Positions 1 through 34,950 of a DNA stretch of 64,000 bases are shown in pieces. The stretch spans positions 9,679 through 73,678 of the forward strand of contig CAZAFB010000002.1 in the NCBI GenBank assembly GCA_964484505.1. Direction: 5' to 3'. Source of the DNA: an uncultured Bdellovibrionales bacterium (GTDB lineage: Bacteria; Patescibacteriota; Minisyncoccia; Moranbacterales; GWC2-37-73). Position 1 is the first letter of the stretch, and each line of letters opens with the position of its first letter. Position numbers and translations under genes: made by a program. The notes under the pieces were generated by a model. The model made no database searches, had not been told where the DNA came from, and was given only the letters and a program-made list of their open reading frames with translations.

Positions 1-1594
1 CAGCCACAGTAAGGGCTTGACCGAAGCTAGAGCTGCTTTCTCCGGTAATATAAACATTAGCATCGGATCCTGCGATCATCGTTGAACTGTAACCCCCTCC
101 GGAATTTTGATAAAACAAATAAGTTCTACCCGCACTTGAACTATAACTCCTTGCTCCCACTACCAAATCAATTTTACCGTCTGAATTAAAATCTCCCGAA
201 TTAACAAAATTACCAAAACTCGATGAGCTTTCTCCTGTTACGATTACATCCGCAGAATTAGCAGTGTCAGGATATGAATCATCATTATAAAAGATATACG
301 CACGTCCATAGTCTGTATTATAAGTATAAGCTCCTACCGCAAGATCGGTTTTTCCATCGGAATTGAAATCGCCCTTAGTCAAAGCTGTTCCAAAATTGGA
401 AGCTGCCTCTCCAGTTATTATCACATCAGCCCCTATTACACCTTTGGAAGAAATATTATTATTGTAAAATACATATACCCTGCCAGCACTTGAATTATAA
501 GCTGGCGCTCCTATTACAAGATCAATTTTTCCATCTGAATTATAATCACCCACTTCCATAAAACCAGATCCGATCATTGACCCACTCTCCCCATTTATCA
601 CCGTCGCAGTTGTACTTTGACCGGGCGCGGTGAATGAAAGCGTCGGATCAAGGGCGATAGGATAACGCTCGGTTTTGATGTTCAGTTCGACAGCAATGGT
701 GGAATTGATGTCATCAATGAGCCAATCAGAATAATCCTTGGTACCATATTTGTCGATGAAAAACGGCCTGGGGATGATGAAGTCGGGAGCTTGATCTTCT
801 TGGGTTGAATTGCTATTTTTCAGATCTTCAGCCACCACTTTTTGGGCACGTTCAAGGAGACTCGGATCTACTTGGGCTTTTGCTTGTTCGTTTTGTTGGT
901 CCTGGTCACTGAAATAATACACTTCGACTTCCCCATCCTCATTGAGTTTTAGTTTGGCATTCTTGAAAGCATAGGCTTCTTCTTCGTGTCCGTTGCCTTT
1001 TTTATATACCAACCAGTTTTTGAGTTTTCTTTCACCTGAAGTCTGTTCTTTCTGGTAACCATAATAAAGCGCTTTTCTGTCGTCTTTAGTTTGGTACTTG
1101 ATGTATTGTTTTTCGTTTTTGGCTTCTTCGATTTTCGTAAGATCTTGATCTGCTTGCTGGCTTGGTGTCGGACTTTCCATGGTAAGTGTTTTTGCGGAAA
1201 TTCCTTGGGAATTTTTATCTTCCATGAAGATGGAACGTTGGCTGTCCAGCTTGATTTCGACAGGCTCTGCGTAGTTTTTGGGAAGATTTACAGAAAAATT
1301 TGCTTTCTTCTCTTCTTGCTGCTGGTCAGCATAGTGAATTTCCAATCCTACACTGCCATCATCTTTTATTTGATAATATTTGCCATCTTCGGAATCTCCA
1401 ATTTGAACGGTTGGAATTTGGTTGAAATCATTAATAATTCTATCCTTTATCGGCTCGACGGATTCCAATTCGGTCTGCAAAGTAAGCGGTTTGTCCTGAC
1501 GATTCCACATTTTAACCACCACAAAAACCAACACGCCAATAACAGCGGCAATTCCCAAGAAAGACAGCAATATTTTTTTATTTATATGCTCCAT
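1..1594 (-). CDS. FG-GAP (integrin-alpha beta-propeller) repeat protein, N-terminal part; C-terminus lies beyond window start
   Basis: ATG at 1592-1594 (minus strand) gives MEHINKKILLSFLGIAAVIGVLVFVVV, an N-terminal TM anchor. The same frame further in gives repeated DFNSDGKxDLAVGA / YIFYNDD / GESSSSFG units typical of FG-GAP repeats. Spot checks of the frame found no stop codons. It is absent from the ORF track because it runs off the window edge. Confidence 0.6.
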   Translation of the reverse strand, partial: MEHINKKILLSFLGIAAVIGVLVFVVVKMWNRQDKPLTLQTELESVEPIKDRIINDFNQIPTVQIGDSEDGKYYQIKDDGSVGLEIHYADQQQEEKKANFSVNLPKNYAEPVEIKLDSQRSIFMEDKNSQGISAKTLTMESPTPSQQADQDLTKIEEAKNEKQYIKYQTKDDRKALYYGYQKEQTSGERKLKNWLVYKKGNGHEEEAYAFKNAKLKLNEDGEVEVYYFSDQDQQNEQAKAQVDPSLLERAQKVVAEDLKNSNSTQEDQAPDFIIPRPFFIDKYGTKDYSDWLIDDINSTIAVELNIKTERYPIALDPTLSFTAPGQSTTATVINGESGSMIGSGFMEVGDYNSDGKIDLVIGAPAYNSSAGRVYVFYNNNISSKGVIGADVIITGEAASNFGTALTKGDFNSDGKTDLAVGAYTYNTDYGRAYIFYNDDSYPDTANSADVIVTGESSSSFGNFVNSGDFNSDGKIDLVVGARSYSSSAGRTYLFYQNSGGGYSSTMIAGSDANVYITGESSSSFGQALTVA

Positions 1595-1628: not shown

Positions 1629-4600
1629 CTATTTAGCAAGGACAAAGGCGGCACTTTTTGCAGTTATTGTGCCGTCAGTATTGGTTTGACACACATACAC
1701 CTCATATTGTCCCCCGGCAAAATCCTTGCTTAATGATATTTCCCAGTTGCCATTATTGTCAGCAATCGTACCGGCAGTTGAAATTTGGCCATCCGAACCA
1801 TAGACGAAAACCGTAATTGAACGATTGCTAGGCACTGTTCCTGTCGCACTCAAAATAACATTGGCGGTTTCATTCTCCACAAATGCGGCATTGATGATAA
1901 TGAAATTATCATTGATTTCGCCTGAAAATTTCGGGTTGGAAAAACTTATTTTATCCCCTTTGTTTCCGTCGGAAGCTTCCAATGGATTATAACCATAGCG
2001 AAGTTCATCGCCATCTAGGAAAGTGTCACCATCGGTATCATATGAATAGGGATTCGTGCCGAGGCGATTTTCTTCTTCATCCACAAGCCCGTCTCCATCA
2101 GAGTCTACCGGCCCGTTGAAAGATTCGGTTGTTTGCGTTTTGACTGTTGGCACCGCTTCGGTCTCGTCCTTGCTTTCCACAATCCACCAGTCGAATGAAA
2201 TATCTTCCGTCACATTACCCTTAACTGAAACAACAAATCCCTCGCTTGGTTTCTTTTGGGTTACGGCGAGCGGATATTCGGCTGCCACTTTTGCCGTTAC
2301 GAATATCTTGGAATTATCAGTGACCGCCTTGGTTTTAATTTCCACATTGCTATTGTTTGCCCTGATGACAGCTTCCCCTATGGTTTTGGCTTCCGGATCC
2401 GTAATTTTAACCGTAAACACTCCTGCAACCATTTCTGCAGCGGTAATTTTGCCATCGAGCAAATCAACATTTCCTATTTCGTCTTTGTATATCATCTTTT
2501 GCACATCAAGCGCAATGGCGAAATCGAGAATTGCTTGATTTTGAGCATTGATCAGTTCCATTTGACTTTCCAATGTGGTGATTCGATTAACTTGGGCATT
2601 GAGCTGACTGCTCAAATCAGCAACTATCGTAGATTGGGATGCGATCGATTGTGTCAACTGAGCTTGAGCCTCGGTTATAATTCTGTTTACCTTGTCCTCA
2701 ACATCCATTTCGGCGATTCTTTGAGATACTTCTTCTTCCACCTTTTCCACGGTGAGCGATTTATTTCTGCGAGAGATGAGCACTTGGATAATTCCTTCTC
2801 CTTGTTGGATAGGCTCAAGAGCAACACCGACAGTAGAATCGCCGGAGTTTGCTTTCATAACATACCCTGGCTTGGTGGCTGCAGTAAGAGAATCTCCCGG
2901 ATTAATCTGTCCGTTTTCTGTGGATACTTTGGCGGGAACTTGTCCGAGCATACCGACGATGACGTAATTGTTGTCGAATTCCCTGCCCGGCTGAGCATTA
3001 CCCAACACTGAAGGAGAAGTGGAGACAATGCCCATAAGGTCAGGATCTTCTGCTCGAGTACAGCGCTTAACAGCATTGGAATTGTTGGTGTCTACGCATA
3101 CTGCTTCCCCAGGAGCAAGATCATGATCTTTTGTTTTGAAGAATTCGGCGTAGTCCGCGCTTCCATTAGTCCAAGCGTTGGAGTTATTAACATAAGCAGG
3201 GCTGGTACCGTCGCTATTCCAGTCTACATAGAACTTATAGGTGGCAGGGCTGGTTACGCCGATTCCCACGTTTCCTGAGCCGTTGATGGTTAGATAGGTA
3301 TTTGATCCTGCAGCTGCGCCGGAACCTATTTTGAAGAAGTCATCGGTATCATCTTGTCCTACATAGAAATCACGGGTGTTGCCGTCAAAGAGAACCAGTT
3401 GATCAGTGGCTGTTCCAGCTCCGAGGGTAATTGATGATTGACTAGTATCGGAACTGGTCATGGTCAAGATGCCGGTATTTCCGGTTGATAGGTTAGCGTA
3501 GTTGGAAGAATTGTAGGAAAGTCTGAGGCCATTGGTTGTGCCAAATATATCCAAGCTTGCTCCTGGCGTGGTGGTGCCAATGCCGAGGCGGCTATTGGTA
3601 TCATCCCAATACATTGTGGAGAATGCAGTCCAGGTACCGGCATTATTATAGAGCATCTGACCTTCTGTTCCGGAAGGCATACCGGATCCTGCCGCTGCCC
3701 AATATCCAGCCCCTGTTCCATCGGAAGTCCATACTTGACCGGAGGTTCCGGCAGAGCCAATGAAATATGCTCCGTAGGTGGATATGTCATAGCCATCGAC
3801 AGTACCGGAGATAATAAGATTGCCATTGATATTTGTATTTCCATTTACATCAAAAAGATACCCTGGGTCGCTGGTTCCGATTCCTACATTGCCATCTTGT
3901 TCTATAACTAAACGATTCAAACCACTGGTAAACATATTGATTCCATAATATCCGGAAACATAAGCTCCACTTTCGCTACCTGCATATGGTGTCGGGCGAT
4001 GAAATCCAAAACCGTAATGGTTCAAATACAATCCATTATAGGTAAAGTCATCATCAGATGTATTTGTGATACCGGGAGAATCATTATCCGTAGCACTTGC
4101 TCTGGAAATCTTGAGAATTCCGTTATTCAAATCAAGTTTTTCTCCCGGACTTGTCGTGCCAATGCCGATATTTGTTCCATTGTCATATATATTGGAATTT
4201 TCCAGGGCACTCGTTCCATTGAAGCGTGGAATGTAATTGTCTGTTCCGGAAATGGATGAAGCGGTTGCGTAATATGAACCATGTTGTCCATCGAGGAGGT
4301 CGGCGTTGAGGTTGGTATTGAGTGTTGTTGAGGTTACGGCTAATGGAGCTGTTCCTGTTGCCAGAGTTGAGGTGAGTTGTCCAGACATATTTAGTGTAGT
4401 GATTCCGGAAATCGCTCCTGCGCTTGAAATGTCCCAATCATTGCTATTGATAGCAATATCATCACCGCCGTCACCGAGTACCACTTGTCCATTTGCAGTA
4501 AGGGTTCCGTTGGACGTCAAGTTCGTGATAGCTGTAATTCCTGCCGGAAAAGTAACGTTCTTGTCTCTATCATAATATTCAGCATTTCTTCTTGCCGCTG

Positions 4601-7600
4601 GATAACCGCCCATCCACTCTATTCCATACAAAGTAAACGGATTCGCATATGTGGCAGATGCAATTGAAAATGTAATTCTAACTTGACCATATTGGGATGC
4701 GTTTGCGCTATACCATATAGGTGTATGAGGTATATAAACATGTCCAGGCCAGTTTGAAGTAGTACCATTGGTTATTTCCGTCCATCCATTGGTATTGTGA
4801 TAAGCTTCAATCTTGAAATTAACATTGTTTCCATTGGTTGAACAATATACATATAAGGCATTAAGAGAAATATATCCTGTACCGCCAGCCGCGTAGTCCC
4901 AAGTTAATCTATAATATCCCGAGCCACCAACGCTTGGCGCAGGTATGGCATTAACACTAGTTGATTGGCCTTCTCCAATCATCAAGTCTTTTAGATTATT
5001 TGTTGAAAGTCTTGTTGATGGCGTCCAAGTAGAACCATCTGCAGATTCTTCCTGCGAATATGCCGGTATAAATCTGAATTTATTATTGAATTGTCCATGG
5101 AAAAGCGCCATTTCTTCTACAGTTGGCGTTCCAAGATTGCTAGTTACGGTATTGAGAGCATTTTTCACTCCGGTTATTGTTCCGTTTACGGTCAAGGTTC
5201 CATTTACAGTTAACAAGTTACTATTAAGAGAAAGGAGGTCCGTATCAGAAGTATGACCTATGTTGGTGCCATCCAATCTTATATTATCAATAGTAGCAAT
5301 AGATCCAGTGTAGGAATTAGAAGTATTTGATAAAGTTAGAGCGTTGCTATATGTTCCAGAAAGCGAAGCATTAAGCAATAAGCCTGAGCCATCAATACCG
5401 TGCGATGTGTCGTCAACATAAAGACCTCCATCAGCCCTAAAATATTGTGGCGTATATATGTTCTTGGCAATATTCTGGTTAATTCTGAACCAAGTAGTGT
5501 CAGTGGAAGTCAATTCACCAACTTGAGTTGTGCCGTTATAGACTTTAATTGTTCCATTGGTATAAATATTGCCATTAACCGAAAGTTTTTCTCCCGGACT
5601 TGTCGTGCCAATGCCGATATTTGTTCCATTGTCATATATATTGGAATTTTCCAGGGCACTCGTTCCATTGAAGCGTGGAATGTAATTGTCTGTTCCGGAA
5701 ATGGATGAAGCGGTTGCGTAATATGAACCATGTTGTCCATCGAGGAGGTCGGCGTTGAGGTTGGTATTGAGAGTGGTTGAAGTCACGGCAAATGGCGCCG
5801 TGCCGGTTGCCAGAGTTGAAGTGAGTTGTCCAGACATTCCGATTGTCGTAACTCCGGAAAATGCTCCAGCGGTTGAAACGTCCCAGCTACTGGAATTTAC
5901 CGCAATAGTGTCTCCTCCATCTCCAATAGTTAGCGCTCCGGTAGTCGTCAAAGTTCCGGAAATATTATTGCTTCCGATTGTTCCTCCAGAAATCGTGATG
6001 GTATCGGCAACATATCCGTCAGCAATCGCATTACCACCCCAGGTTGCGTTCGAAATAGTCGAACCATTTATTGATATGAAACTGCTATTGGAATATATCC
6101 TCAGTGTACCATCAGCATCCAAAGATTGAATACCAGCTCTAAATGTTCCGCCGCTAGTTCCAGAAATGAGCCAAGTAGCTGAAGAGCCTGTGCCCATGGT
6201 AACATTCATACCTCCAGTATCTATACCATTGGTTGATCCCCAGCTACTACTGCGACCAGTTGTATAAACTCTGGAAAATGTCGGGCTGCTTGTTGTGAGG
6301 ACTGCTTGATTTAAATATGAAGCAAATTGATTACCATCCCAAAGATCAGCATTAAGATTGGAGACCAAAGTGGTTGAGGATACTGCTAACGGCGCCGTGC
6401 CAGTTGCAATTGTCGAAATCAATTGATTGTCAGTCCTGATTGCCCCACCGACAACATCAATTTTTGTCCCAGGACTTGTCGTTCCAATTCCAACATTTCC
6501 AGAATTTTTTATGGTCATCTTGACATCAGACATTGACACATTCGTGCCGTCCAGTACACCATTTAACGCAAAATGAAGATCACCAGTACCCCAAGTTCCA
6601 GTCCTTTGATGGTATATGGCTGATTTTATTGAATTTCCTCCTGCCACATATCCCTGAAAACCAATACCAGTCACTTCATTAGAAGCCAAAGGAGCCCCGA
6701 TCACTAATCCCACTTGGTTAGTGTTTGTGTCAACAATATGAGTTTTTGCTATCGAACTCGTCGTTCCAATTCCCACACTGCCCCCTACCGGATTAAGAGC
6801 GAGACTTCCATCATTAGCTATCCCTGTGTGCTTAGACTGAATGAAAGAATAACCAGCAGAACCCGCTCCCGCCACCGCACCAAGTTTGACTCCAACGTCA
6901 TTTAGTCCAGAATCAGTATCGAAACTCATTATTCCATAAGTAGTAGCATCTCCGGAAGTTCCAAGAATTTGTAACTTAGCCTGTGGACTCGTCGTTCCAA
7001 TTCCGACATTACCACTCGAATCTATACGAAGTCTTTCCGTACCGCCGGTTGAAAGTCCCAATGTGTCGGCAATCGGATTATAAATTCCCGTATTCTTGTC
7101 TCCCGTAAAAGTGAGGCTTGGAAGCGCTGCTGTTCCGGAGCCCATTCCGACGGTTCCGTTAAGATAAAGACTTCCGTTTTGGATAGCACTTGATGTCGAA
7201 TCAACGAGACGGGTAATGTCTGTGCGATAATAATCCTCAAATTCTCCGCGATTGTAGTACAATTGGGTCTGCTGTTCAGGAGTTAAATAGGCATCAAAAA
7301 CAGCCAAGCCCGCAATTTGAGCGTTTGCTTGATATGCGCCAGCATCATCCGAACCGATATACAAAGTTTTTCCCGTCGGATCTTGCGGTGTCCAACTGGC
7401 ACTTGAAGTATAACTGTTTCCATTAAGATAACAACGATTGTAGTTCCAATACCATCCGCAAGAAAGATGATTCCAGCCGTATCTGGTCACATCAGTCGTT
7501 GAAGTCGTTGATGTGGTCACCCATGCAGAACCGTTCCAATGATCGATAGAGAAACGATCATTCGTCGCATCCAAACGAACCCGTAATTCATTGGGGATGT

Positions 7601-14983: not shown

Positions 14984-15086
14984 TTTGCTTTATAAAAGCC
15001 TTTATTTAATTAAATTCAATACTGATTCAATACCCATTCAATACCATATTGGGTACAATTTTCCATGCTCAAATTATACCAAAAAA

Positions 15087-15107
15087 AACGGCTTTTTTAA
15101 AGCCGTT
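15087..15107 (-). terminator. Rho-independent terminator downstream of the LamG giant gene (9-bp stem aacggcttt/aaagccgtt, 3-nt loop, A-run 15081-15086 on plus strand, which is the U-tract on the minus strand)
   Basis: Perfect 9-bp inverted repeat at 15087-15095 / 15099-15107. It is flanked by an A-run on one side and T-rich sequence on the other. Confidence 0.5.
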
Positions 15108-23998: not shown

Positions 23999-24031
23999 AA
24001 TAGCTGTAAATATAATCTTAGGACTGTCTTT

Positions 24032-25449: not shown

Positions 25450-25574
25450 CTTGTTATGTTTATTTTTATCTTAAAATGATGGCAATTATCTTGAATTTAA
25501 TCACTAACAATTTTCCCTATCTTTATTATAAAACATACTTATCAGAAATAAAAGTAACATGACTTATCCACAGG

Positions 25575-25886
25575 TTACTTTTTCTTTTTTTCGCCATCTA
25601 TCTTTCTCACTAAATCACGCATAGTATACATTCCAGCAAGAAAAACTACGCTAAAAATAACTTTTGATCCGGTGAAATATAAGGCAAATCTGCCTTCCGG
25701 CAAACCACCAAATATAAAGATGGCTTCGGCAATTGCGAGAAAAACTATAGCCATCAAAAACAACTTATAGGAAATATCCAATTCCTGTTCCACTCGCCAA
25801 ATCACCCCGATTGCATAAATAATCGAAAGAAGCAGGCAAGCGAAGATAACTGATTCCATTATTATTAATATTTGTTCTGTGCTCAT
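25575..25886 (-). CDS. Small 3-TM membrane protein
   Basis: 103-aa ORF with three hydrophobic helices. Its ATG overlaps the stop of the upstream gene (atga at 25883-25886), suggesting translational coupling. Confidence 0.45.
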   Translation of the reverse strand: MSTEQILIIMESVIFACLLLSIIYAIGVIWRVEQELDISYKLFLMAIVFLAIAEAIFIFGGLPEGRFALYFTGSKVIFSVVFLAGMYTMRDLVRKIDGEKKKK

Positions 25887-27325: not shown

Positions 27326-27396
27326 ATTTAAACGATGCGCTTAATTTTAAATTCTTTCCTGTTTGCACATTACCCATTCACCCTATTCATATGCCC

Positions 27397-30300
27397 TTAT
27401 TTTATCTTTGCCCAACCGAATATCTCTTGAAAATTGTTTATGATCAATTGGACGATATTTTCTTTTTTCTTTGGAGTAAGCAAAGCAAATTCACCCGAAG
27501 TACTTTCGTTTCCGGATTGATCTTTCGATTTCACCTTGAAATAATAGACTGTTCCGGGCTTAAAAATAGTAACCACAACGATATGCGTCTGGGAGGAATT
27601 CCCTTCTGTCATTATTTCTTTTTCTTCCCCATTGCGCCTTTCCTTATATGAAAGAACTGTTGTCGCTGGTTCATTTGTCGTCCAAGAAATTATGGACTGC
27701 ACTTTGTCATTCTGAGTAAGCGCATTCTCTGTTTTTATTTTATCTATTTTCGGCGCCGTATCATCTTTTCCTGTAGAAAAAGTTACTACTTGGGATTTTG
27801 CCTCATTGCTCTGTTCATCGCGAGCGATTACGGACAAATTATAAGCTACTCCCGATTCCAAATTTTCCAATTCCACTTCGTGTGAAATGGCCAGATCAGG
27901 CTTACCTTGCGTTCCTGAATTGGCAGGATTGCCTTGATCAATATAGGAAACAAGGGCATCTGTGGGAACATTGGTGGAAAACTTAACCACAGCACCATTC
28001 TCCGTAACTGACTCGACAGCTATATTGGAAATTTGCGGAGGAGCTTTGGATTCGAAAGTATAATCAGATGAAGAATACAAAGTTCCTTTCTGATCTTTAC
28101 CTTTTACTCGAAAATGATACGTTTGCGCCGGTTGCAAACCGGAAACTACCAGCTCATGATTTTTAACATAAGAGCCACTTTCTTTTATTTCACCATATGA
28201 ATTAGAAAGTCCATATTCGATTATTGAAGTAGTGGCTTGGTTGGTGCTCCAGGTTATTGTAGCTTCGTTGATGGATGTGGGAACAGCCTTGATTGAAGAT
28301 AGTGATGAAGGAGATTTGGTCGCAAAAGTTGATTGCGCCGATTCGGTTATGTTGCCGGCAACATCATATGAAACAACCGAATAATAGTATTTAGTATAAG
28401 GTACTAGTCCGGAAATCACTACCGAGTGAGAAGTGGAAAAATTATCCACACTGGTATTTACCAAATTATCACCTTCCATGCGCATATTCTTAGAATCAAC
28501 GCCATATTTTACCAGGCTATTCGCCTCTTCGTCAGTGGTCCAAGAAATGGTTACGGAGTCACCCGTAGAAGCAGACGTCTTGATACTACTTATTTTGGGA
28601 GCAATATCATCATCTCCAGTGCCGCTTCCTCCGCCTGATCCTGCCTGCTGCTGCGAAGTAACAAAAGAATACTCATCGGAAGAAATCGTGGTACTGAGAT
28701 TATCCTGACAAGTTACTTTGTAATAATAAGTCGTTTCAAAAATGAGTCCTGCAAGATGAATTGAATGCGTCTTGTCATAAGTAGCTTCAGAAACTGGAAC
28801 CTCGGTGTAATTTCCTGATTGAGTTCCAAATTCGATTGTACACTCCGCTTCCTGATCAGTATCAAAAGAAACAACAGCTTTGGTATCCGTTATTACAGGA
28901 GTGGAGACATTATCGATAGAACCAAGCGGGTCATGTTGTTGTTCGGTTGGTTTTTCTGTGGTGAAATTTCCCGGTGACGATGTGCCTGCATTGCCATATG
29001 CATCAGTCGCAGTAATTGTAAATAAATAACTATCATCAGCATTAAGACCGGAAAGCAACACGAAATGATCCGTGGCGTAGTTTGTCATATTCACATTGTT
29101 TGTAAGAGGCATTTCTGTTCCATATAAAACCAAGCTCCTGGTTGCTTTGTCCGTATGCCATGAAATTAGCGCGCTATCAGAAGCAAGTTCCTCCACTGTT
29201 ATAGCGGAAATTACCGGATCGGAATCATCATGCCCGGTAGCGAAAGAATCATTGGTTGAATACCCTGTATTGCCACTACTATCTTGTGAAAATACTCTGA
29301 ATTGATATGTGTTATCAGCACCAAGATCATGAGGTAACTCAATCGAATGAGAAGTGGAAAGGTCACTGCTTCCATACACTCGACCATAAGCAACCGTTGG
29401 TCCGAATTCCACAAATGAAGAAGCGGCTTCATCGCTGTCCCAAGTTACCAACACTGTTTGCTGATCCGCTCCGGAAACAGCAGCTGCAACATTGGAAATC
29501 ACAGGTGCAACACTATCATCACCTCCCGACAACGTGCTGAAGTTGTTTTCTGCAGAGACGGCTTCATTTCCCATTGCATCTCGCGAATGTACCCGATAAT
29601 AATAAGTGGCGCTTGAGGAAAGTCCTGACAGCGTAACTGAATGCGAGGTAACCATGTCGTTTGTACCCAACAGCAATCCGGCAGGAAAACCTTGAGTTAA
29701 TGAATACTCCACAAAAGAATTGGAAGATTCATCGGTATCCCAAGTTATGGTAGCAGCGTCTTCGGTCGTTATGGCATTCAAGGAAGAAATGGCCGGAGGC
29801 GTAGAATCCAAGGGGTCCGTGATGAAAGGAGCCTGAGAATCATCAATTCCGACATTACCATATTGATCAGCTGATTTTACTTGGTAGTAATAGGTTTGTC
29901 CAGGCGTAAGTCCGGTAAGTGTAACGCTGTGTTCCGTACCCATAGTCGTAACTCCTATCTCGGAAGTAAAATCCCCCGAAACAGTTGAAAAACCGACAGT
30001 AGCATTAGCAAGAACATCGGTTTGCCAATTTAGTTGAGCCGTGGTTGTTGTCACGTTCGAAATCTGTATATTCGATATCACAGGAGGAATAGAACTAACT
30101 TCACCATTACCATCTGGTATATCACTGGTAATGTTGGAAAAGGCCGAAATACTGCCGTTCACATCTTCTGCTGTAATTTTGTAATAATATCTGGTTTCAG
30201 CAACAAGATCAGCATCCAGATAATAATTAGTCAATCTGTCTTCATTGGTTGCCACAGGAGTTGAGCCATAATTGATTCCATCACTGCTTCGCCAAATATT

Positions 30301-33300
30301 ATATTTGGCGAATCCGGCTCCGGATTGCCCTCCATCAATAACATCCCAAACAATAAGCTCGCGATATTTATCATTGTCAACATCCGAAGCGTCATAATAT
30401 ATAGTATTCAGAGGTTTTGCCGGCGTAGTTACGGAGATATCGGTATAATTTCCATAGGCATCGCCTATTCTCAAATATACCGTGGCGGGATCATCGGTAA
30501 GATTGCCATATACATACGAAGACTGAAATGCTTGGTATGAGGTATCGTTAAAATCAGCAAAGTTGGAAACCATCATTTGATAAGAAGAATCATCGATCGG
30601 AGTATCTAAAGACAAAAGATTTTGAGTATGATCTATGGAAAAGGCGACATTTGTCGGATTCTTGGTATCAATGATAAAAACATTCGAGGAGTTGTATCCC
30701 AAATTATTTGCACCCTCAGAGTCATTGGCTTTTACTCTGACCTTAAAATTAGAACCATTGAATTGCTGTGGATAATCAATTTTTGGATTCCATGTAAGCT
30801 GATAAGTGCTCCAATTAACTTCCTGAACCGCTATCCCGGCGCCCACATTTCCACCAACCGTAGCGGCATCAACCCATGTCTCGCTTCCAGCTGCGCTGCA
30901 ATTGGCGCTGCAATATTGCAGGGATATTTCAACATTGCCTGGAGTAGCGCCGGAAAGAGTGTCGGTATCGCGAGTTTCGTAATTTACAGTAACGATTCCA
31001 TTACTTCCTTGTGATGCTGAAACGTTACGCAATTCCGGTGGCGCATTAACCACATACTGCATGGTCACATCGGATAGATTTGGAGCGCTTAAGCCATCAG
31101 AAACAAGGAATGCTCTGTATTGAATCCATTGATCATCCAAGCCATCCCTCAGGACACTTGGCATTGATTCTCCGCCATTTTTATCAGTAAAATAGCTCGC
31201 ACCTGTTCCATCCGGACCCATCCAAGAAGTCCAGGTACCAGGAATACTTCCGTCATGCACCGCCGTACGTACTTGAAATCTCACATCAGTTCCAGACGGA
31301 ACAGTTTCATTCCATCTTATCTTCGAAAGTATGTTAGCACCATCAGATGTGTTATACATCGTGGAAGTAAGCGTCATGGGCGAAGGGTAATATTCGTAAG
31401 AAATTGTGGCTTGCTGGAATCTTGGTGTTGCCGTATCGTCAGTAGTCGTAAAATTAACCCTATATTGATAATAGCGATGCTGCCCCAAGCTGGATATATC
31501 TCCTCCTTGAGAAACATCGACTATCCAAGAAGTCCAAGTGCCATCGGGTGTGCCATTATCACCTGCACGTACATCCAGGGTAACCGTACTTCCTGCTGGC
31601 GCATCGTACAAATAAGCCATAGTAGTATAAGTTTTGATACTCCCGGTATCCACAACTACCGAAGAAAATGATCCCGCCGTATTGTAATGAGTTACGCCAA
31701 GCACCAAGGTTCCTGAAGCTGCACCCCATACTTTTAAAGGTAATGATTTATCATAATAATTATTCGTGCCAAGCTGTCCGTAGTTGTTCATGCCCCAATT
31801 CCAAACAGAATTTCCATCGGTTGACAAACTGGCAGTGGAACCATATCCGGCAGTAATTGCGCCTATGCTGGACAAATTACCCGTTCCCGCAGAATCAAGG
31901 GCTTGAACCGGATAGTTTTTATTTATTGAAGAGTTATCACCTAATTGTCCGTAGCCGTTCCAACCCCAAGCCCACACGGTGTTGTCAGTCTTCATTGCAA
32001 CCGTATGCGCATTGCCGCAAGCAACAGAAGAAACGTCGTTGAGAGTGCCACTGCCTCCCGCTCCAACAACCTGACTTGGCATATGAGCATCAACAATAGT
32101 TCCATTACCAATTTGTCCATTGCCATTCCAGCCCCAAGCCCAAACAGTTCCATTGTTCATAAGTGCAACCGAGTGCAAATAGCCCGCAGAAATTGATGAT
32201 ATGTTTTGCAAATATCCGCTACCCGTAGAATCGAATACTTGAATCGGGGCAGATTCATTTTGAGTGGTATTATTTCCCAGTTGACCGTTACTGTTATATC
32301 CCCAAGACCAAACAGTACCATCGTCTTTAAGCGCCAGAGAATGTTTTTCTCCTCCCGCAACCTTGGATACTCCAGACAAATAACCCAGTCCGCCTGGACC
32401 GACCACTTGTACTGGAATCATTTTCATATTGGTTGTATTATCCCCGAGCTGACCGTTTGAATTGTTTCCCCAAGTCCAAACTGTGCCATCGGTTTTCACC
32501 ACAAGCGTGAAGGTGTTTCCACAAGCAATAGATTCCACATCAGTAAGATAGCCTATGCCGTCTGAATCTGTAACCTGCGTCGGGGTGTATCTGTTCATTG
32601 TTGAATTATCGCCAAGTTGACCATAGCCGTTCCAACCCCAAGCCCAAACGGTGCCATCTGATTTTAAGGCAAATGAATGAGAATATCCCGCAGCAATCGC
32701 AACCACATCAGTAAGATTGCCACTTCCACCCGAACCCAGAACCTGGATCGGGGTTAACCTATTGGTTGTCGTGTTATCACCCAGTTGACCGTTTCCATTC
32801 CAGCCCCACGCCCAAACTGTTCCATCATTCTTCAAAGCAAGTGTGTGTGAATATCCGGAAGCTATTTTGGAAACATTAGAGAGAAATCCGCTGGCTGGAC
32901 CCCATGTTTGCAGAGGTAATCTTGATCCCGTAGTAGTGTTATTTCCAAGCTGTCCGCTGACATTATCGCCCCAAGTCCATAATGTTCCGTCATTTTGAAA
33001 AGCATATGAATTATCATGACCTCCTGTTATAAATTTAACATTGGCAAGATTTCCGGTTCCCAGATTGTCCATAACTTGACTGGGAAGATAACGATCAACG
33101 AGCGTATTATCAGCCAATTGTCCTGTTCCGTTATAACCCCAGGCCCAAGCATTTCCACTTGAATCTATCGCCAGTGAATGTTTAAATCCTCCATTGATAC
33201 TGATGATATTTGAAAGATTTGCCAAGCCGGAAGAATCCAAAACCTGAACTGGCAAATGTTTTTCTATTATGGTGTTGTCTCCGAGCTGGCCTCTATCATT

Positions 33301-34950
33301 CAATCCCCAAGCACGCACCGTTCCGTCAGTCATAACGCCAAGTGAATGATTTGAACCACTGGCAATTGCCGTTACCCCGCCAAGAAAATCATCACCGGCT
33401 TCATTTAATACTTGTACAGGCGTCGACTTGCTGATTATAGTATTATCACCCAGCTGTCCATTAGCGTTCAAACCCCAAGTCCAAACAGTGCTGTCGGATT
33501 TTAAAGCAATCGCGTGAGACCCTCCTGCCGAAATATTTTGGATACCACTAAGTGTTCCCGCGCCACCAGTTCCAAGGACTTGTACGGGAAGATGTTTGTC
33601 AACAACTGTTCCGTCGCCCAATTGACCGCTTGTGTTCAAACCCCAAGCCCAAACGGTGCCATCTGATTTTAAAGCAAGTGAAAATCTATCTCCCGCAGCT
33701 ATGGCTACAACATCCGTAAAATCGCCAGCACCATCAGAATCCACAACTTTTATGGGAGAATTTTTTTGAGCAACCGTATTATCTCCGAGTTGACCATGAT
33801 CATTATTTCCCCAAGCAAAAACCGTGCCGTCAGCTCTTAGCGCAAGCGAATGAGAACTTCCTGCGCTGACCGCTTCGATCTCCTCGAGATATCCAGCGCC
33901 GCCTTCACCCAAAACTTGCACCGGTGTATAGCGATTGGTAATTGTACTTTCACCAAGTTGCCCATTACCGTTCGCTCCCCATGCCCAGACAGAATCATCC
34001 GCCCTGATTGCCAACACATGGGTTTGACCGGCAGACAATGCCGCAACGCCGGCAAAACTCATTTTGACTCCAGCAGTAGCACCAGCACCAAAAACTTTAG
34101 TATTGGTATTTGTTCCGGAGTTGAAACCGCCTGAGTTATGGGTGTCTTCCTCGCCGGTACTTGATGTTTGCAGTGAAGACTCGGCGGTCCACGCAACCGA
34201 AACATCATTGCCGCCATTGATAATATCCGTATTCGCATCTTTTGCGAAATACTCATTCCAACTTGTCTGGTTAGCTGGATGCGCGGCATAATTGGCAGTC
34301 GCTCCGCCGGACCAGCTGGTTTGCTGCCAAGTATAAGTGGCTCCCTTGGTGTAACTATAATTATTCAAAAAAGCCGTAATGACTATAATAAATATAACCA
34401 AAAAGGAAACAGCTCTTTTGGCAAAAGTTTTTTGAGAAAAAGTTTTTATAAATTTCTTTTTTTCAATTAAACATGCTTGCTGGAATTTTTTTATGAAATT
34501 TTCAAAACTAAAATAACCATCTTTCAAAACCACACTGGCCATTTTTCTCAACAAAGAATCGTTTCTTACCATGCGTGTCGAAAGAGAGTTTCTTGAAATA
34601 GAAAATCGGCTCTTGCTTAGCTTTAATTTTCTTTTTCTTTTTTTCAAAATAAGTTTATCCGGCAAGCTGCGGAAATTTTCAAAAACTTTCCTTGCCTTAT
34701 TTGATGTAAATGCAACTAGCGACAAAATGTTGATGAAGATGTGCGAAACACAAAATGTTGGTTTTTGTCTTCTTGCAATATTATTTCTTTGCTCAATGCG
34801 TCTAAAGCCATCCATTGAACCACGGTGAAAACCGCCCTTCTTCAGAGAGGCATAAGAAATTACTTCACCTGCAATTTTTCTCGTCGATTTTTGTTTTATT
34901 TTTTTCATTCCGGCGCTGAACACCTTGTTTTGAGAGAGAAAAATTATCAT
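27397..34950 (-). CDS. Giant (up to 2517 aa) membrane-anchored surface protein: about 20 RCC1-type beta-propeller repeats followed by about 10 FN3-like repeats; true start probably internal (ATG at 34572 or 34542)
   Basis: Repeated WAWGxNxxGQLGDNTxxxxxxPxQV blades (RCC1 / alpha-tubulin suppressor family). The C-terminal half has repeated PPVISNIQISNVTTTTAQLNWQTD...HSVTLTGLTPGQTYYYQVKSADQYGN FN3-type units. TM helix AVSFLVIFIIVITAFL precedes the repeats. The first roughly 126 codons are basic, low-complexity and lack domain signal. Confidence 0.8.
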   Translation of the reverse strand: MIIFLSQNKVFSAGMKKIKQKSTRKIAGEVISYASLKKGGFHRGSMDGFRRIEQRNNIARRQKPTFCVSHIFINILSLVAFTSNKARKVFENFRSLPDKLILKKRKRKLKLSKSRFSISRNSLSTRMVRNDSLLRKMASVVLKDGYFSFENFIKKFQQACLIEKKKFIKTFSQKTFAKRAVSFLVIFIIVITAFLNNYSYTKGATYTWQQTSWSGGATANYAAHPANQTSWNEYFAKDANTDIINGGNDVSVAWTAESSLQTSSTGEEDTHNSGGFNSGTNTNTKVFGAGATAGVKMSFAGVAALSAGQTHVLAIRADDSVWAWGANGNGQLGESTITNRYTPVQVLGEGGAGYLEEIEAVSAGSSHSLALRADGTVFAWGNNDHGQLGDNTVAQKNSPIKVVDSDGAGDFTDVVAIAAGDRFSLALKSDGTVWAWGLNTSGQLGDGTVVDKHLPVQVLGTGGAGTLSGIQNISAGGSHAIALKSDSTVWTWGLNANGQLGDNTIISKSTPVQVLNEAGDDFLGGVTAIASGSNHSLGVMTDGTVRAWGLNDRGQLGDNTIIEKHLPVQVLDSSGLANLSNIISINGGFKHSLAIDSSGNAWAWGYNGTGQLADNTLVDRYLPSQVMDNLGTGNLANVKFITGGHDNSYAFQNDGTLWTWGDNVSGQLGNNTTTGSRLPLQTWGPASGFLSNVSKIASGYSHTLALKNDGTVWAWGWNGNGQLGDNTTTNRLTPIQVLGSGGSGNLTDVVAIAAGYSHSFALKSDGTVWAWGWNGYGQLGDNSTMNRYTPTQVTDSDGIGYLTDVESIACGNTFTLVVKTDGTVWTWGNNSNGQLGDNTTNMKMIPVQVVGPGGLGYLSGVSKVAGGEKHSLALKDDGTVWSWGYNSNGQLGNNTTQNESAPIQVFDSTGSGYLQNISSISAGYLHSVALMNNGTVWAWGWNGNGQIGNGTIVDAHMPSQVVGAGGSGTLNDVSSVACGNAHTVAMKTDNTVWAWGWNGYGQLGDNSSINKNYPVQALDSAGTGNLSSIGAITAGYGSTASLSTDGNSVWNWGMNNYGQLGTNNYYDKSLPLKVWGAASGTLVLGVTHYNTAGSFSSVVVDTGSIKTYTTMAYLYDAPAGSTVTLDVRAGDNGTPDGTWTSWIVDVSQGGDISSLGQHRYYQYRVNFTTTDDTATPRFQQATISYEYYPSPMTLTSTMYNTSDGANILSKIRWNETVPSGTDVRFQVRTAVHDGSIPGTWTSWMGPDGTGASYFTDKNGGESMPSVLRDGLDDQWIQYRAFLVSDGLSAPNLSDVTMQYVVNAPPELRNVSASQGSNGIVTVNYETRDTDTLSGATPGNVEISLQYCSANCSAAGSETWVDAATVGGNVGAGIAVQEVNWSTYQLTWNPKIDYPQQFNGSNFKVRVKANDSEGANNLGYNSSNVFIIDTKNPTNVAFSIDHTQNLLSLDTPIDDSSYQMMVSNFADFNDTSYQAFQSSYVYGNLTDDPATVYLRIGDAYGNYTDISVTTPAKPLNTIYYDASDVDNDKYRELIVWDVIDGGQSGAGFAKYNIWRSSDGINYGSTPVATNEDRLTNYYLDADLVAETRYYYKITAEDVNGSISAFSNITSDIPDGNGEVSSIPPVISNIQISNVTTTTAQLNWQTDVLANATVGFSTVSGDFTSEIGVTTMGTEHSVTLTGLTPGQTYYYQVKSADQYGNVGIDDSQAPFITDPLDSTPPAISSLNAITTEDAATITWDTDESSNSFVEYSLTQGFPAGLLLGTNDMVTSHSVTLSGLSSSATYYYRVHSRDAMGNEAVSAENNFSTLSGGDDSVAPVISNVAAAVSGADQQTVLVTWDSDEAASSFVEFGPTVAYGRVYGSSDLSTSHSIELPHDLGADNTYQFRVFSQDSSGNTGYSTNDSFATGHDDSDPVISAITVEELASDSALISWHTDKATRSLVLYGTEMPLTNNVNMTNYATDHFVLLSGLNADDSYLFTITATDAYGNAGTSSPGNFTTEKPTEQQHDPLGSIDNVSTPVITDTKAVVSFDTDQEAECTIEFGTQSGNYTEVPVSEATYDKTHSIHLAGLIFETTYYYKVTCQDNLSTTISSDEYSFVTSQQQAGSGGGSGTGDDDIAPKISSIKTSASTGDSVTISWTTDEEANSLVKYGVDSKNMRMEGDNLVNTSVDNFSTSHSVVISGLVPYTKYYYSVVSYDVAGNITESAQSTFATKSPSSLSSIKAVPTSINEATITWSTNQATTSIIEYGLSNSYGEIKESGSYVKNHELVVSGLQPAQTYHFRVKGKDQKGTLYSSSDYTFESKAPPQISNIAVESVTENGAVVKFSTNVPTDALVSYIDQGNPANSGTQGKPDLAISHEVELENLESGVAYNLSVIARDEQSNEAKSQVVTFSTGKDDTAPKIDKIKTENALTQNDKVQSIISWTTNEPATTVLSYKERRNGEEKEIMTEGNSSQTHIVVVTIFKPGTVYYFKVKSKDQSGNESTSGEFALLTPKKKENIVQLIINNFQEIFGWAKIK

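What the first reader, a model, noticed from the sequence alone, without database searches (positions are those of the whole stretch)
1..34950. 35-kb uninterrupted minus-strand supercluster of exported and giant surface proteins (candidate host-attachment system)
More than half the window is a single co-oriented array of exported and surface-protein genes. In order it holds an FG-GAP protein, a 4233-aa tail-fibre-like giant, a membrane-anchored HTH protein and a 1778-aa DUF2341+LamG lectin-repeat giant. A WxL/DUF916-like mini-locus with three secreted paralogs and two anchored proteins follows, then a 480-aa FN3/Ig protein and a 2517-aa RCC1+FN3 giant. Gaps are short and several start/stop codons overlap. 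Three giant adhesin-like proteins of different folds (beta-helix/tail fibre, lectin, beta-propeller) next to a WxL-type locus is not a described operon type. In a reduced episymbiont-like genome it plausibly encodes the host-cell attachment apparatus. That functional reading is inference. The gene order and domain content are seen directly in the sequence.
Basis: partly seen in the sequence, partly recalled or inferred. Interest (0 to 1): 0.8.

Follow-up and report, generated by a model that had tools for sequence, protein, structure and literature searches.

The report
Pam-like pilus operon with giant adhesins
This 35-kb block of a Moranbacteria-like (CPR) genome encodes a small chaperone-assembled pilus, related both to the newly described Pam pilus and to Gram-positive WxL loci, flanked by giant membrane-anchored adhesins that stay next to it in related species, so it is probably the cell's host-attachment kit.

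Summary
Positions 1-34950 contain 13 co-oriented genes (97% coding) for exported or membrane-anchored proteins, and the stated domains are there. Co-orientation itself is window-wide strand bias and does not show an operon.

The central "WxL/DUF916-like mini-locus" is best read as an usher-less, chaperone-assisted donor-strand pilus of the Pam family (bioRxiv 2026).
- The three secreted paralogs model confidently as chaperone-usher-type pilin folds and hit NCBIfam Pam pilin/PamT models below cutoff.
- The 232-aa paralog connects to PamT through intermediates.
- The two C-terminally anchored proteins fold like E. faecium WxLIP and like PapD-class chaperones.
- No WxL motif, LPXTG or usher is present.

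Synteny across about 25 independent loci supports a functional unit. The order tip pilin, shaft pilin, two chaperones, FN3 anchor, HTH protein, tail-fibre-like giant recurs. Each of the other giants recurs in its slot in one or two other species. In the wider family (1206 clusters), about half of the best 150 matches are proteins of roughly 320-3800 aa that end in this pilin domain.

This is a new variant of a known kind. It suggests, without proving, that Pam pili and WxL clusters are one system class. The attachment function remains inference.

The parts
1..1594 (-). FG-GAP repeat protein, N-terminal part only (the gene runs off the window's left end), with an N-terminal TM or signal segment
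   Evidence: Pfam FG-GAP 5e-25 and FG-GAP_3 7e-15; hydrophobic segment at residues 7-25. An FG-GAP-like 1194-aa protein follows the pilus operon in L031.
1629..14330 (-). 4233-aa tail-fibre-like giant. It has a signal/anchor segment, a conserved N-terminal domain (about residues 20-195), then mosaic repeats, one LamG, a TSP3 repeat and a C-terminal Ig-like domain.
   Evidence: PHROG tail-fibre families 2e-30 and 3e-24; Pfam Laminin_G_3, TSP3_bac, Big_13. Only the N-terminal ~175 residues are conserved (E 1e-37 to 1e-65) in the same-strand syntenic giants of 12 Moranbacteria-type loci (L007, L010-L015, L017, L018, L032, L033, L035); L020, L023 and L029 match it more weakly (1e-8 to 1e-11). That domain has no phage or PDB sequence match.
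14543..14983 (-). 146-aa bitopic membrane protein: cytoplasmic HTH_17, one TM, short extracellular tail. It forms a conserved partner gene immediately upstream of the tail-fibre-like giant.
   Evidence: Pfam HTH_17 8e-7; TM 83-101. Homologs sit directly before the giant in L007, L010, L011, L014, L018, L032 and L033. Family alignment shows a conserved extracellular motif.
15073..15107 (-). Terminator-like hairpin (9-bp stem plus T-run) overlapping a promoter-like site, in the gap between the LamG giant and the HTH gene
   Evidence: It is the strongest minus-strand terminator-like site that falls in an intergenic gap of 14000-33999, and the site counts there barely exceed shuffles, so it is suggestive only.
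15204..20540 (-). 1778-aa DUF2341 plus 6x LamG lectin-repeat giant, type II membrane-anchored (TM 61-79 after a basic N-tail)
   Evidence: Pfam Laminin_G_3 7e-148 (6 stretches), DUF2341 3e-6; TM. An 1811-aa DUF2341+LamG giant occupies the same slot in L032.
20681..21379 (-). 232-aa PamT-like candidate tip pilin: signal peptide, three S-x-x-[YF]-x-[IL]-type repeats (consensus S-x-N-Y-x-[IL] in the family) in place of a donor strand, then the pilin domain
   Evidence: NCBIfam CPR_pilus_PamT E 2.5e-13 (50 bits, cutoff 240) and CPR_Pam_pilin_C 9e-6. The subfamily alignment A5 retrieves ~243-aa proteins that match the PamT model end-to-end at 1e-14 to 1e-18. 38% identical to the 216-aa pilin.
21451..22065 (-). 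204-aa protein: signal/anchor segment, one FN3-like domain, C-terminal TM. Candidate PamR-like membrane anchor.
   Evidence: TMs at 20-38 and 173-191. Conserved in L007, L010, L014, L018, L032 and L033 right after the chaperones; family alignment. Only weak FN3 similarity (i-E 0.04-0.07), so the fold is suggestive, not shown.
22034..23029 (-). 331-aa chaperone candidate 2: DUF916/WxLIP-like, two beta-sandwich domains, C-terminal TM
   Evidence: Pfam WxLIP_PGBD 1.3e-5; paralog of the 319-aa protein; C-terminal TM 299-317; A3 profile E 3e-75.
23039..23998 (-). 319-aa chaperone candidate 1: signal peptide, two beta-sandwich domains with a long flexible hairpin, C-terminal TM helix
   Evidence: AF2 model pLDDT 91.2. 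Foldseek vs PDB: EfmWxLIP1 9i1y/9i25 E 1e-11, then CfaA, Caf1M, CsuC, EcpB, YadV, CupB2 and RbmA. Family profile vs PDB sequences: EfmWxLIP1 E 2e-5. One homolog is named 'P pilus assembly chaperone PapD' by JGI.
24032..24715 (-). 227-aa (221 by gene callers) shaft pilin paralog with an N-terminal donor-strand-like segment
   Evidence: 68% identical to the 216-aa pilin; NCBIfam CPR_Pam_pilin_C 1.2e-5.
24799..25449 (-). 216-aa shaft pilin: signal peptide, conserved 'TDQVTLSLTVAQ' segment, then a single Ig-like pilin domain that ends at the C-terminus
25575..25886 (-). 103-aa small polytopic membrane protein; its start overlaps the stop of the upstream p480 gene by 4 nt (coupled to p480)
   Evidence: Hydrophobic segments; 4-nt overlap. 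Conserved with p480 and the RCC1 giant in L016 and L031.
25883..27325 (-). 480-aa protein: signal/anchor, short conserved hydrophobic strand, FN3, Ig-like (Big_13) and a third domain, then a C-terminal TM. A second PamR-like anchor candidate.
   Evidence: Pfam Big_13 1e-4; FN3 match 1.7e-8 to the giant's FN3 profile; TM 438-456; conserved 'LSLW[IV]'/'LSVYV' strand before the FN3.
27397..34950 (-). 2517-aa RCC1 beta-propeller plus ten FN3 giant, type II anchored (TM 177-195 after a 176-aa basic tail)
   Evidence: Pfam WD40_RLD 3e-226, RCC1 6e-148, fn3; ten FN3 repeats 1548-2492; TM. Homologous giants sit in the same position in L016 and L031.

Best explanation
The block is a surface 'adhesion island' of a Moranbacteria-type CPR bacterium, built around an usher-less, chaperone-assisted donor-strand pilus of the Pam family.

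Proposed mechanism (inferred from the Pam and chaperone-usher models except where marked shown). All components are exported by Sec; N-terminal hydrophobic segments are shown. The two membrane-anchored two-domain proteins (319 and 331 aa) act as PapD/WxLIP-like chaperones. They cap the open groove of the single-domain pilins (216 and 227 aa) at the membrane surface. The pilins then polymerise by inserting their conserved N-terminal 'TDQVTLSLTV' strand into the groove of the preceding subunit. The 232-aa PamT-like subunit lacks that strand and sits at the tip. An FN3 protein with a C-terminal TM (p204, and/or p480 with its extra N-terminal strand) terminates the fibre and anchors it.

Around this core sit giant adhesins anchored in the membrane by their N-termini. 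They are the tail-fibre-like giant with a constant N-terminal domain and a variable distal part, paired with a membrane HTH protein; the LamG lectin giant; the RCC1/FN3 giant with its p480/tm103 partners; and the FG-GAP protein. Together these supply the binding specificities for the host-cell surface.
For: Shown here.
- Chaperone fold and topology. The AF2 model (pLDDT 91.2) has two beta-sandwiches and a C-terminal helix. It matches WxLIP at E 1e-11, then CfaA, Caf1M, CsuC and EcpB.
- Sequence links. All three pilins hit NCBIfam Pam pilin/PamT models at significant E-values, though below the curated cutoffs. pil232 reaches PamT through intermediates that cover the full model. In L036 the PamT-like gene lies with a TM-anchored chaperone, a 492-aa two-domain pilin, a second chaperone (E 8e-55 to the window's family) and a TM protein. 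That is a Pam-like gene set.
- Donor-strand candidate. It lies immediately after the signal peptide, has alternating hydrophobics (V42, L44, V46, V48) and is conserved (0.63 against 0.70 for the domain and 0.26 for the signal peptide). It is absent from the tip paralog.
- The pilin domain ends within a few residues of the C-terminus in nearly all of the top 150 family representatives, as in chaperone-usher subunits.
- No usher-like protein is encoded in the block.
- Synteny. A G4233-like giant is adjacent to the operon in about 15 loci: on the same strand downstream in 13, divergent in L020 and L023. The HTH gene lies between them in 7. The RCC1 giant, p480 and tm103 recur in L016 and L031, the LamG giant in L032, and an FG-GAP-like protein in L031.
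- In relatives, giants with LamG, beta-propeller and filamin modules are fused to the pilin domain.

From the literature. Pam filaments are real pili assembled by strand exchange, with TM-anchored PapD-like chaperones, a TM-anchored FnIII terminator, no usher and a co-localised tail-fibre-like protein (bioRxiv 10.64898/2026.03.03.709456).
Against: - All Pam-model scores are far below NCBIfam's curated cutoffs (20-50 bits against 55 and 240). No NCBIfam model recognises the chaperones, p204 or p480.
- The pilins are single-domain, unlike the two-domain PamA/B/E.
- Polymerisation, the donor-strand role of the N-terminal segment and the anchor role of p204/p480 were not modelled, because no multimer prediction was available. 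DSSP assigns no beta-strand to residues 28-51 in the monomer model.
- The window's giants have no pilin domain. No physical link to the pilus is shown, and they could act independently.
- Some relatives have the pilus module without any giant (L008/L009, L034, L036/L037).
- The syntenic loci are mostly from one order, so part of the synteny is shared ancestry.
- No expression or imaging data exist.
Confidence: 0.62

Rival explanations
1. It is a WxL/Csc-type static cell-surface complex, not a filament. The DUF916-like membrane proteins permanently hold the small secreted proteins at the surface by strand insertion. These in turn dock or organise large adhesins, as proposed for WxLIP-WxL in enterococci and lactobacilli.
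For: The best structural and only PDB sequence match of the anchored proteins is EfmWxLIP1, and Pfam gives weak WxLIP_PGBD hits. The locus composition (two WxLIP-like plus three small secreted proteins) satisfies the numerical cluster rule of PMC10599100. In relatives, large proteins carry the small protein's domain at the extreme C-terminus, as large WxL proteins do. WxLIP is predicted to complete the WxL sandwich with a strand.
Confidence: 0.2
2. It is only a juxtaposition of unrelated surface-protein genes. Strand bias and gene-order inertia in a small genome place a small pilus operon next to giant adhesin genes that function independently.
For: Co-orientation is window-wide. A terminator/promoter candidate splits the block. 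The giants lack pilin domains. Several relatives have the pilus module with no giant. The position of pil232 and the set of giants vary between loci.
Against: The adjacency of the G4233-type giant (usually with its HTH partner) persists across about 15 loci. In the 13 same-strand loci the pilins are only about 47-65% identical to the window's, despite internal rearrangements. Each other giant recurs in the same slot in at least one other species. In more distant lineages equivalent adhesin modules are covalently fused to the pilin domain. The Pam study independently reports a tail-fibre-like protein as a central neighbour.
Confidence: 0.13
3. It is a phage-derived or mobile module: a domesticated tail-fibre cassette or prophage remnant, given the tail-fibre similarity and a nearby recombinase.
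For: PHROG tail-fibre hits for the 4233-aa protein, a 'virion structural protein' PHROG (phrog_8510) for the LamG giant, and RCC1-type PHROGs of other categories for the RCC1 giant. A relative's giant carries Peptidase_S74. A serine recombinase next to tRNAs lies at 42.1-43.9 kb.
Against: No capsid, portal, terminase or tail-tube genes are in the block. The conserved N-terminal domain has no match in 50,697 phage records. All proteins carry Sec-type signal or anchor segments. GC content matches the surrounding chromosome, unlike the low-GC island at 38-43.7 kb, which is separated from the block by gyrB. The PHROG matches are to generic LamG, RCC1 and fibre repeats.
Confidence: 0.03

Closest known systems
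Pam pilus system of CPR bacteria (Ca. Mycosynbacter amalyticus PamA/B/E/T, PamC/D, PamR; bioRxiv 10.64898/2026.03.03.709456)
   Same: A Sec-exported Ig-like pilin domain at the C-terminus. A strandless tip subunit homologous to PamT (E 2.5e-13 directly, and full-length through intermediates). Two paralogous PapD-like chaperones that carry a C-terminal TM helix. FN3-type proteins with a C-terminal TM as candidate terminator/anchor. No usher. A tail-fibre-like protein as conserved neighbour. CPR host.
   Different: The shaft pilins are single-domain (about 170-aa domain, no N-terminal beta-sandwich), so the donor strand would be an N-terminal extension rather than an interdomain linker. Scores are far below NCBIfam's curated cutoffs. 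The lineage is Moranbacteria-like (by the source names of relatives), not the Saccharimonadia and Microgenomatia highlighted in the preprint. No ATP-synthase, CorB or MFS neighbours were seen among the window genes that were scanned. Three additional giant adhesins and an HTH membrane protein are present. The chaperones are detectably DUF916/WxLIP-like, a link the preprint does not mention.
WxL / Csc cell-surface clusters of Firmicutes (small WxL, large WxL, WxLIP = DUF916+DUF3324+TM; PMC10599100, PMC9772566; PDB 9i1y, 9i25)
   Same: A membrane-anchored two-Ig-domain protein homologous to WxLIP. Several small secreted single-domain proteins. In the wider family, large multidomain adhesins carry the same domain at the extreme C-terminus. 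Strand insertion by the anchored protein is predicted to complete the partner's sandwich.
   Different: None of the secreted paralogs has a W-x-L motif or matches the Pfam WxL domain. DUF3324 is not detected by Pfam. There is no LPXTG (CscD-like) protein. The secreted proteins are related to Pam pilins and fold like donor-strand pilins. WxL proteins are described as peptidoglycan-bound, not filamentous.
Chaperone-usher pili of Gram-negative bacteria, especially archaic (Csu, CupE/SCPU) and alternate (CFA/I) classes
   Different: No usher and no outer membrane. The chaperones are tethered by a C-terminal TM helix. There is no significant sequence similarity to Pfam fimbrial families.
Chaperone-free donor-strand fibres (TasA of Bacillus, archaeal TasA-like TLP, threads, cannulae)
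   Different: Those systems lack dedicated PapD-like chaperones. Here two chaperone paralogs are conserved in the operon.
Phage tail fibres / long modular fibrous adhesins
   Same: The 4233-aa giant has a constant N-terminal domain and a mosaic, variable distal part. It matches tail-fibre PHROGs, and a relative ends in a Peptidase_S74 intramolecular-chaperone domain.
   Different: It has a Sec signal/anchor and sits in a chromosomal context without virion genes. Its N-terminal domain is not found in phage records.

Membership tests
Pam pilus system (CPR) | [quoted passage not shown] | tested here: inconclusive
   All three paralogs hit the model over its full length (E 9e-6, 1.2e-5, 3.6e-4) but score only 20-26 bits, below the cutoff. 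The fold is pilin-like. This indicates remote homology, not membership by the curated rule.
Pam pilus system (CPR) | PamT: a single-domain tip pilin without a donor strand (NF058579, cutoff 240 bits) | tested here: inconclusive
   pil232 scores E 2.5e-13 at 50 bits, covering model positions 11-128. Its subfamily profile retrieves ~243-aa proteins matching positions ~4-241 of 241 at 1e-14 to 1e-18, still below the cutoff. It lacks the shaft pilins' N-terminal strand.
Pam pilus system (CPR) | [quoted passage not shown] | tested here: not met
   The 216- and 227-aa pilins have only a signal peptide, a short strand and one domain. Two-domain and much larger versions do exist in the wider family.
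Pam pilus system (CPR) | Two PapD/FimC-like chaperones, each with a C-terminal TM helix | tested here: met
   The 319- and 331-aa proteins are paralogs. The model shows two beta-sandwich domains plus helix 287-310. Fold matches include CfaA, Caf1M, CsuC, EcpB, YadV and CupB2. C-terminal TMs are present. Direct comparison with PamC/D sequences was not possible.
Pam pilus system (CPR) | PamR: an FnIII protein with a C-terminal TM and an extra N-terminal strand (terminator/anchor) | tested here: inconclusive
   p480 has FN3 (1.7e-8) plus Big_13, a C-terminal TM and a conserved short hydrophobic strand before the FN3. p204 has a signal segment, a weakly FN3-like domain and a TM. Neither was modelled nor compared with PamR.
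Pam pilus system (CPR) | No usher or trans-envelope machinery; a tail-fibre-like protein in the neighbourhood | tested here: met
   None of the 13 proteins gives a usher or secretin hit. The 4233-aa neighbour matches tail-fibre PHROGs and is syntenic in about 15 loci.
Pam pilus system (CPR) | Filament formation by donor-strand exchange | not testable with these tools
There is only indirect support from the conserved N-terminal strand and the fold class.
WxL / Csc cluster (Firmicutes) | At least one WxLIP (DUF916 PGBD + DUF3324 HBD + TM helix) | tested here: inconclusive
   PGBD gives weak Pfam hits below the gathering score (25.7 and 20.8 against 27.3 bits), but the family profile hits EfmWxLIP1 at 2e-5 and the fold match is 1e-11 over both domains. 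Many homologs carry PF06030. DUF3324 was not detected by Pfam.
WxL / Csc cluster (Firmicutes) | At least two proteins with a WxL domain (dual Trp-x-Leu motif; Pfam WxL) | tested here: not met
   None of the three secreted paralogs contains a W-x-L tripeptide. No Pfam WxL hit was found in 53 family members at E<=10. No WxL structure is among the top fold matches.
WxL / Csc cluster (Firmicutes) | A small LPXTG-anchored protein (CscD) in the cluster | tested here: not met
   No LPxTG-like motif occurs in any protein of the block.
Chaperone-usher pilus | An outer-membrane usher | tested here: not met
   No usher-like protein is encoded in the block. CPR bacteria are monoderm (established knowledge; also stated).
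Chaperone-usher pilus | An incomplete Ig-fold subunit and a PapD-fold chaperone | tested here: met
Phage tail fibre | Part of a virion gene module, attached to a baseplate or tail | tested here: not met
   No virion genes are in the block. The N-terminal domain is absent from phage records. A Sec signal/anchor is present.

The most novel reading that the evidence does not exclude
Pam pili of CPR bacteria, the WxL/Csc clusters of Firmicutes and this large, unannotated family (1206 clusters at 50% identity) may be one ancient system class of monoderm envelopes. In it, a membrane-tethered PapD-like chaperone (DUF916/WxLIP = PamC/D) completes, and then hands over by strand exchange, small Ig-like subunits. 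The main job of those subunits would be to carry or organise giant modular adhesins, either fused to the subunit domain or encoded next to it as here.

The window's locus would be a linking form. Its chaperones are sequence-homologous to WxLIP, while its subunits are sequence-homologous to Pam pilins. If so, WxL proteins may also be strand-exchanged fibre or stalk subunits rather than merely peptidoglycan-bound proteins. CPR cells would then use this machinery, with tail-fibre-like giants of constant base and variable tip, to determine host range.
Probability: 0.3. Interest if true: 0.8.

Novelty: new variant of a known kind. Interest (0 to 1): 0.6.

Why it matters
How ultrasmall CPR episymbionts find and hold their hosts is largely unknown, and the Pam pilus was identified only in 2026, in one cultivated species.

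- This locus extends the Pam principle to a different, uncultivated lineage in a stripped-down form, with single-domain pilins.
- It shows that the pilin domain family is large, and that the domain is often the C-terminal module of very large adhesins.
- It shows that giant tail-fibre-like, lectin and propeller proteins are kept next to the pilus genes across species. That gives concrete candidates for host-range determinants.
- It provides a sequence-level bridge between the Pam chaperones and the WxLIP/DUF916 proteins of enterococci, listeriae and lactobacilli. If confirmed, this would recast WxL virulence and adhesion loci as relatives of chaperone-assembled pili, and would make the question testable in genetically tractable Firmicutes.

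Tried and rejected
- WxL identity of the secreted paralogs: rejected. No motif, no Pfam hit, no structural match.
- Pilin domains or chaperone domains hidden in the window's giants: none found with unfiltered hmmsearch.
- Sequence matches of the pilin family to solved structures: none. A 3-sequence profile gave only a chance hit, 4z48 at E 1.3. PamA/B (25PZ, 25QA) appear not to be in the PDB copies searched.
- NCBIfam recognition of the chaperones, p204, p480 or their counterparts in L036/L037: none. The mid-sized two-domain family members also miss the Pam models.
- The distant 'Saccharibacteria'-labelled loci L025-L028: not canonical Pam by NCBIfam, only weak hits.
- First genome scan with the 53-sequence alignment: failed for lack of a conserved stretch. 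It was repeated with a 25-sequence alignment.
- Promoter and terminator scan: counts barely above shuffles, and only one site is worth mentioning.
- Phage origin of the giant's N-terminal domain: no tblastn match. No PDB sequence match either.
- Exact taxonomy of the window's genome: not obtained.
- FN3 nature of p204: only weak partial matches.
- Co-orientation as evidence of an operon: rejected, because strand bias is window-wide.
Full report
**1. The observation**

The ORF map reproduces the finding gene for gene. Thirteen minus-strand genes fill positions 1-34950 at 97% coding density. Gaps run from -32 to 220 nt, and there are two overlaps.

Pfam confirms the domains:
- FG-GAP (5e-25).
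- Laminin_G_3, TSP3_bac and a weak Big_13 in the 4233-aa protein.
- HTH_17 in the 146-aa protein.
- DUF2341 plus six Laminin_G_3 in the 1778-aa protein (7e-148).
- RCC1-like propellers (3e-226) and FN3 in the 2517-aa protein. There are ten FN3 repeats at residues 1548-2492.
- Weak, sub-threshold WxLIP_PGBD (DUF916) in the 331- and 319-aa proteins.

PHROGs supports 'tail-fibre-like' for the 4233-aa protein (2e-30 and 3e-24).

Every protein has an N-terminal hydrophobic segment. ch319, ch331, p204 and p480 also have a C-terminal TM. The 1778- and 2517-aa giants have basic N-tails of about 60 and 176 residues before a single TM, so they are type II membrane-anchored.

Co-orientation is not informative. 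The minus-strand run continues past gyrB to 40091. Almost the whole window is minus-strand, with negative GC skew in 29 of 32 2-kb bins.

The same gene order occurs in six near-identical contigs from other samples. The window matches a 117-kb NCBI/JGI contig that carries no names.

**2. The central mini-locus**

NCBIfam gave the key lead. The 232-aa paralog hits 'CPR-type pilus protein PamT' (E 2.5e-13). All three small paralogs hit 'Pam pilus system pilin subunit' (9e-6 to 4e-4). All of these scores are below the curated cutoffs.

The Pam pilus was described in a 2026 preprint on Ca. Mycosynbacter amalyticus (10.64898/2026.03.03.709456). Cryo-EM there shows filaments of Ig-like pilins joined by donor-strand exchange. 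The operon has a strandless tip pilin (PamT) and two PapD/FimC-like chaperones that carry a C-terminal TM helix (PamC/D). It also has an RbmA-like FnIII protein with a C-terminal TM and an extra N-terminal strand (PamR, the proposed terminator/anchor). There is no usher, and the neighbourhoods contain a 'tail fibre-like protein'.

Structure predictions from family alignments are confident:
- The 319-aa protein model has pLDDT 91.2. It shows two beta-sandwich domains with a long flexible hairpin and a C-terminal helix.
- Its best matches are the E. faecium WxLIP structures 9i1y and 9i25 (E 1e-11). Next come the chaperones CfaA, Caf1M, CsuC, EcpB, YadV and CupB2, and RbmA.
- The chaperone family profile also finds EfmWxLIP1 by sequence (E 2e-5). 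Many homologs carry PF06030, and JGI named one 'P pilus assembly chaperone PapD'.

The secreted paralogs, however, are not WxL proteins. None of the three contains a W-x-L tripeptide, there is no LPXTG partner, and there is no Pfam WxL hit in 53 family members at E<=10. Instead, 24 of the 53 weakly hit DUF4402.

**3. Donor strand, tip and anchor (partly inferred)**

Directly after the signal peptide the shaft pilins carry a segment with the family consensus A-T-D-T-D-Q-V-T-L-S-V-T-V. It has alternating hydrophobics and is conserved almost as well as the folded domain. The mean top-residue frequency is 0.63, against 0.70 for the domain and 0.26 for the signal peptide; L44 is invariant in the 25 closest sequences and nearly so across the 53-sequence family. 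This is the signature of an N-terminal-extension donor strand, but it was not modelled in a multimer.

The 232-aa subfamily replaces this segment with three S-x-N-Y-x-[I/L] repeats. A profile of that subfamily retrieves 936 proteins. Among them are ~243-aa proteins that match the PamT model end-to-end (1e-14 to 1e-18). That gives a chain of homology from pil232 to PamT.

In one such genome (L036) the PamT-like gene lies in a Pam-like set:
- a TM-anchored chaperone;
- a 492-aa two-domain pilin;
- a second chaperone, at E 8e-55 to the window's family;
- a protein with a signal peptide and a TM.

For the anchor there are two candidates. p480 has a conserved short hydrophobic strand, FN3, an Ig-like domain and a C-terminal TM. 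p204 has one weakly FN3-like domain and a C-terminal TM. Both fit the PamR idea, and neither was tested structurally.

**4. Are the giants part of it?**

I compared the window's proteins with the ORFs of 29 further loci from genome and metagenome collections.
- In Moranbacteria-type genomes the order pil232-like, pil216-like, ch319-like, ch331-like, p204-like, HTH146-like, G4233-like giant recurs in L007, L010, L014, L018 and L033. L011 has the same order without a detectable p204-like gene. L012, L013, L015, L017 and L035 have shorter or partial versions.
- About 15 loci have a G4233-type giant next to the operon. It is downstream on the same strand in 13 and divergently transcribed in L020 and L023. 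In 7 of them the HTH gene lies between.
- L032 has a DUF2341+LamG giant in exactly the window's slot.
- L016 and L031 have the RCC1 giant, p480 and tm103 upstream.
- L031 has an FG-GAP-like protein downstream.
- Some lineages have the module without giants (L008/L009, L034, L036/L037).

Among the syntenic giants only the N-terminal ~175 residues are conserved. They score E 1e-37 to 1e-65 in the Moranbacteria-type loci, and 1e-8 to 1e-11 in the distant L020, L023 and L029. The rest is a mosaic of shuffled repeats. One relative ends in Peptidase_S74. This is the constant-base, variable-tip logic of tail fibres. Yet the N-terminal domain has no phage match and no PDB sequence match.

An exhaustive profile search found 1206 representative clusters (409 at E<=1e-10). 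About half of the best 150 are proteins of roughly 320-3800 aa with the pilin domain within a few residues of the C-terminus. Examples carry LamG, beta-propeller, filamin and Flg_new modules. L027 and L028 show such giants directly upstream of two small pilins and a chaperone.

So adhesin modules of the kinds seen in the window are fused to the pilin domain elsewhere. In the window they are separate, membrane-anchored and adjacent. No pilin domain was detected in them, so a physical link to the pilus is not shown.

**5. Transcription units**

Consensus scans barely exceed shuffles. The one notable site is a 9-bp hairpin with a T-run at 15107-15087 (-), overlapping a promoter-like site at 15101-15073. 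It lies between the LamG giant and the HTH gene. This fits the conserved HTH-giant pair being its own unit.

**6. Comparison with known systems**

The locus works like a Pam pilus. It meets the chaperone, no-usher and tail-fibre-neighbour features. It fails the curated score cutoffs and the two-domain pilin architecture, so I file it as a remote, minimal variant rather than a member by NCBIfam's rule.

It shares with WxL clusters a homologous anchored protein, and the 'small plus large protein with a C-terminal domain' logic. The WxL papers describe WxLIP inserting a strand that completes the WxL sandwich, and WxL as always C-terminal. It lacks the defining WxL domain.

It shares fold classes with chaperone-usher pili but has no usher.

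In the searchable literature no paper connects WxL/WxLIP with donor-strand or chaperone-usher systems. The Pam preprint does not mention WxL or DUF916.

**7. Verdict**

An attachment apparatus is plausible and the synteny supports a functional unit, but the core is a recently described kind of system, not an undescribed operon type.

The best explanation is a Pam-family usher-less pilus plus linked giant adhesins, at confidence about 0.6. Its novelty is that of a new variant of a known kind.

The most novel reading not excluded is that Pam pili, WxL clusters and this large family form one monoderm chaperone-only strand-exchange class devoted to displaying giant adhesins. I put that at about 0.3.

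Noticed in passing
window 49105-60309 (-): A complete type IV pilus gene cluster: five prepilin-type (N_methyl) genes, prepilin peptidase, PilC, a PilT-like ATPase, PilB and PilM. The window therefore encodes two different pilus systems about 15 kb apart. T4P genes also flank the small pilus module in L008/L009.
   Followed up: partly
window ~38000-43970: A low-GC stretch (0.335-0.341 against about 0.41) of small unannotatable ORFs, plus a large serine recombinase (42103-43728, +) whose 3' end abuts tRNA-Asp, tRNA-Met and tRNA-Met (43687-43966, -). It is probably an integrated mobile element at a tRNA site, separated from the adhesin block by gyrB.
   Followed up: partly
L027 2-9286 and L028 1-3843: Giant proteins (at least 3094 aa and at least 1280 aa, both cut by the contig end) that end in the pilin-like domain. 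They sit directly upstream of two small pilins and one DUF916-like chaperone, which is a fused 'adhesin plus pilin domain' arrangement.
   Followed up: partly
L007 1-3873; L008 13605-17881; L009 13089-17345: Sets of ATP-grasp/RimK-like genes lie next to the pilus module in two other lineages. In L008/L009 they come with 7TM_transglut and MATCAP genes. They might modify the pilins post-translationally; the Pam study saw a modification on PamA.
   Followed up: no
protein P0246: A 3017-aa protein with 38 separate matches to positions 50-99 of the pilin profile. It looks like a tandem array of a pilin sub-fragment, and its meaning is unknown.
   Followed up: no
window 14543-14983 and homologs in L007, L010, L011, L014, L018, L032, L033: The HTH+TM protein family has a conserved short extracellular motif, F-[VI]-P-E-E-I-x-K-[VI]-P-N-E-x-G-G-Y-D-V-Y. 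It is degenerate in the window's copy (NDDGSLNIY). This suggests a membrane-bound sensor/regulator, or a partner of the giant's N-terminal domain.
   Followed up: partly
L036 9351-11736 and L037 9360-11747: A minimal PamT-like plus TM-anchored-chaperone pair lies next to comEA/comEC-type competence genes and is preceded by a ~210-aa polytopic membrane protein. No giant is adjacent.
   Followed up: partly
window 61760-62908 (-): A PAS-domain histidine kinase lies just beyond the type IV pilus cluster.
   Followed up: no
window 1-7543: The window extends about 7.5 kb beyond the start of the 91.9-kb JGI contig that otherwise matches it. A 117-kb NCBI/JGI contig carries the same proteins, so the FG-GAP gene and whatever lies beyond it could be read from that record.
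   Followed up: no
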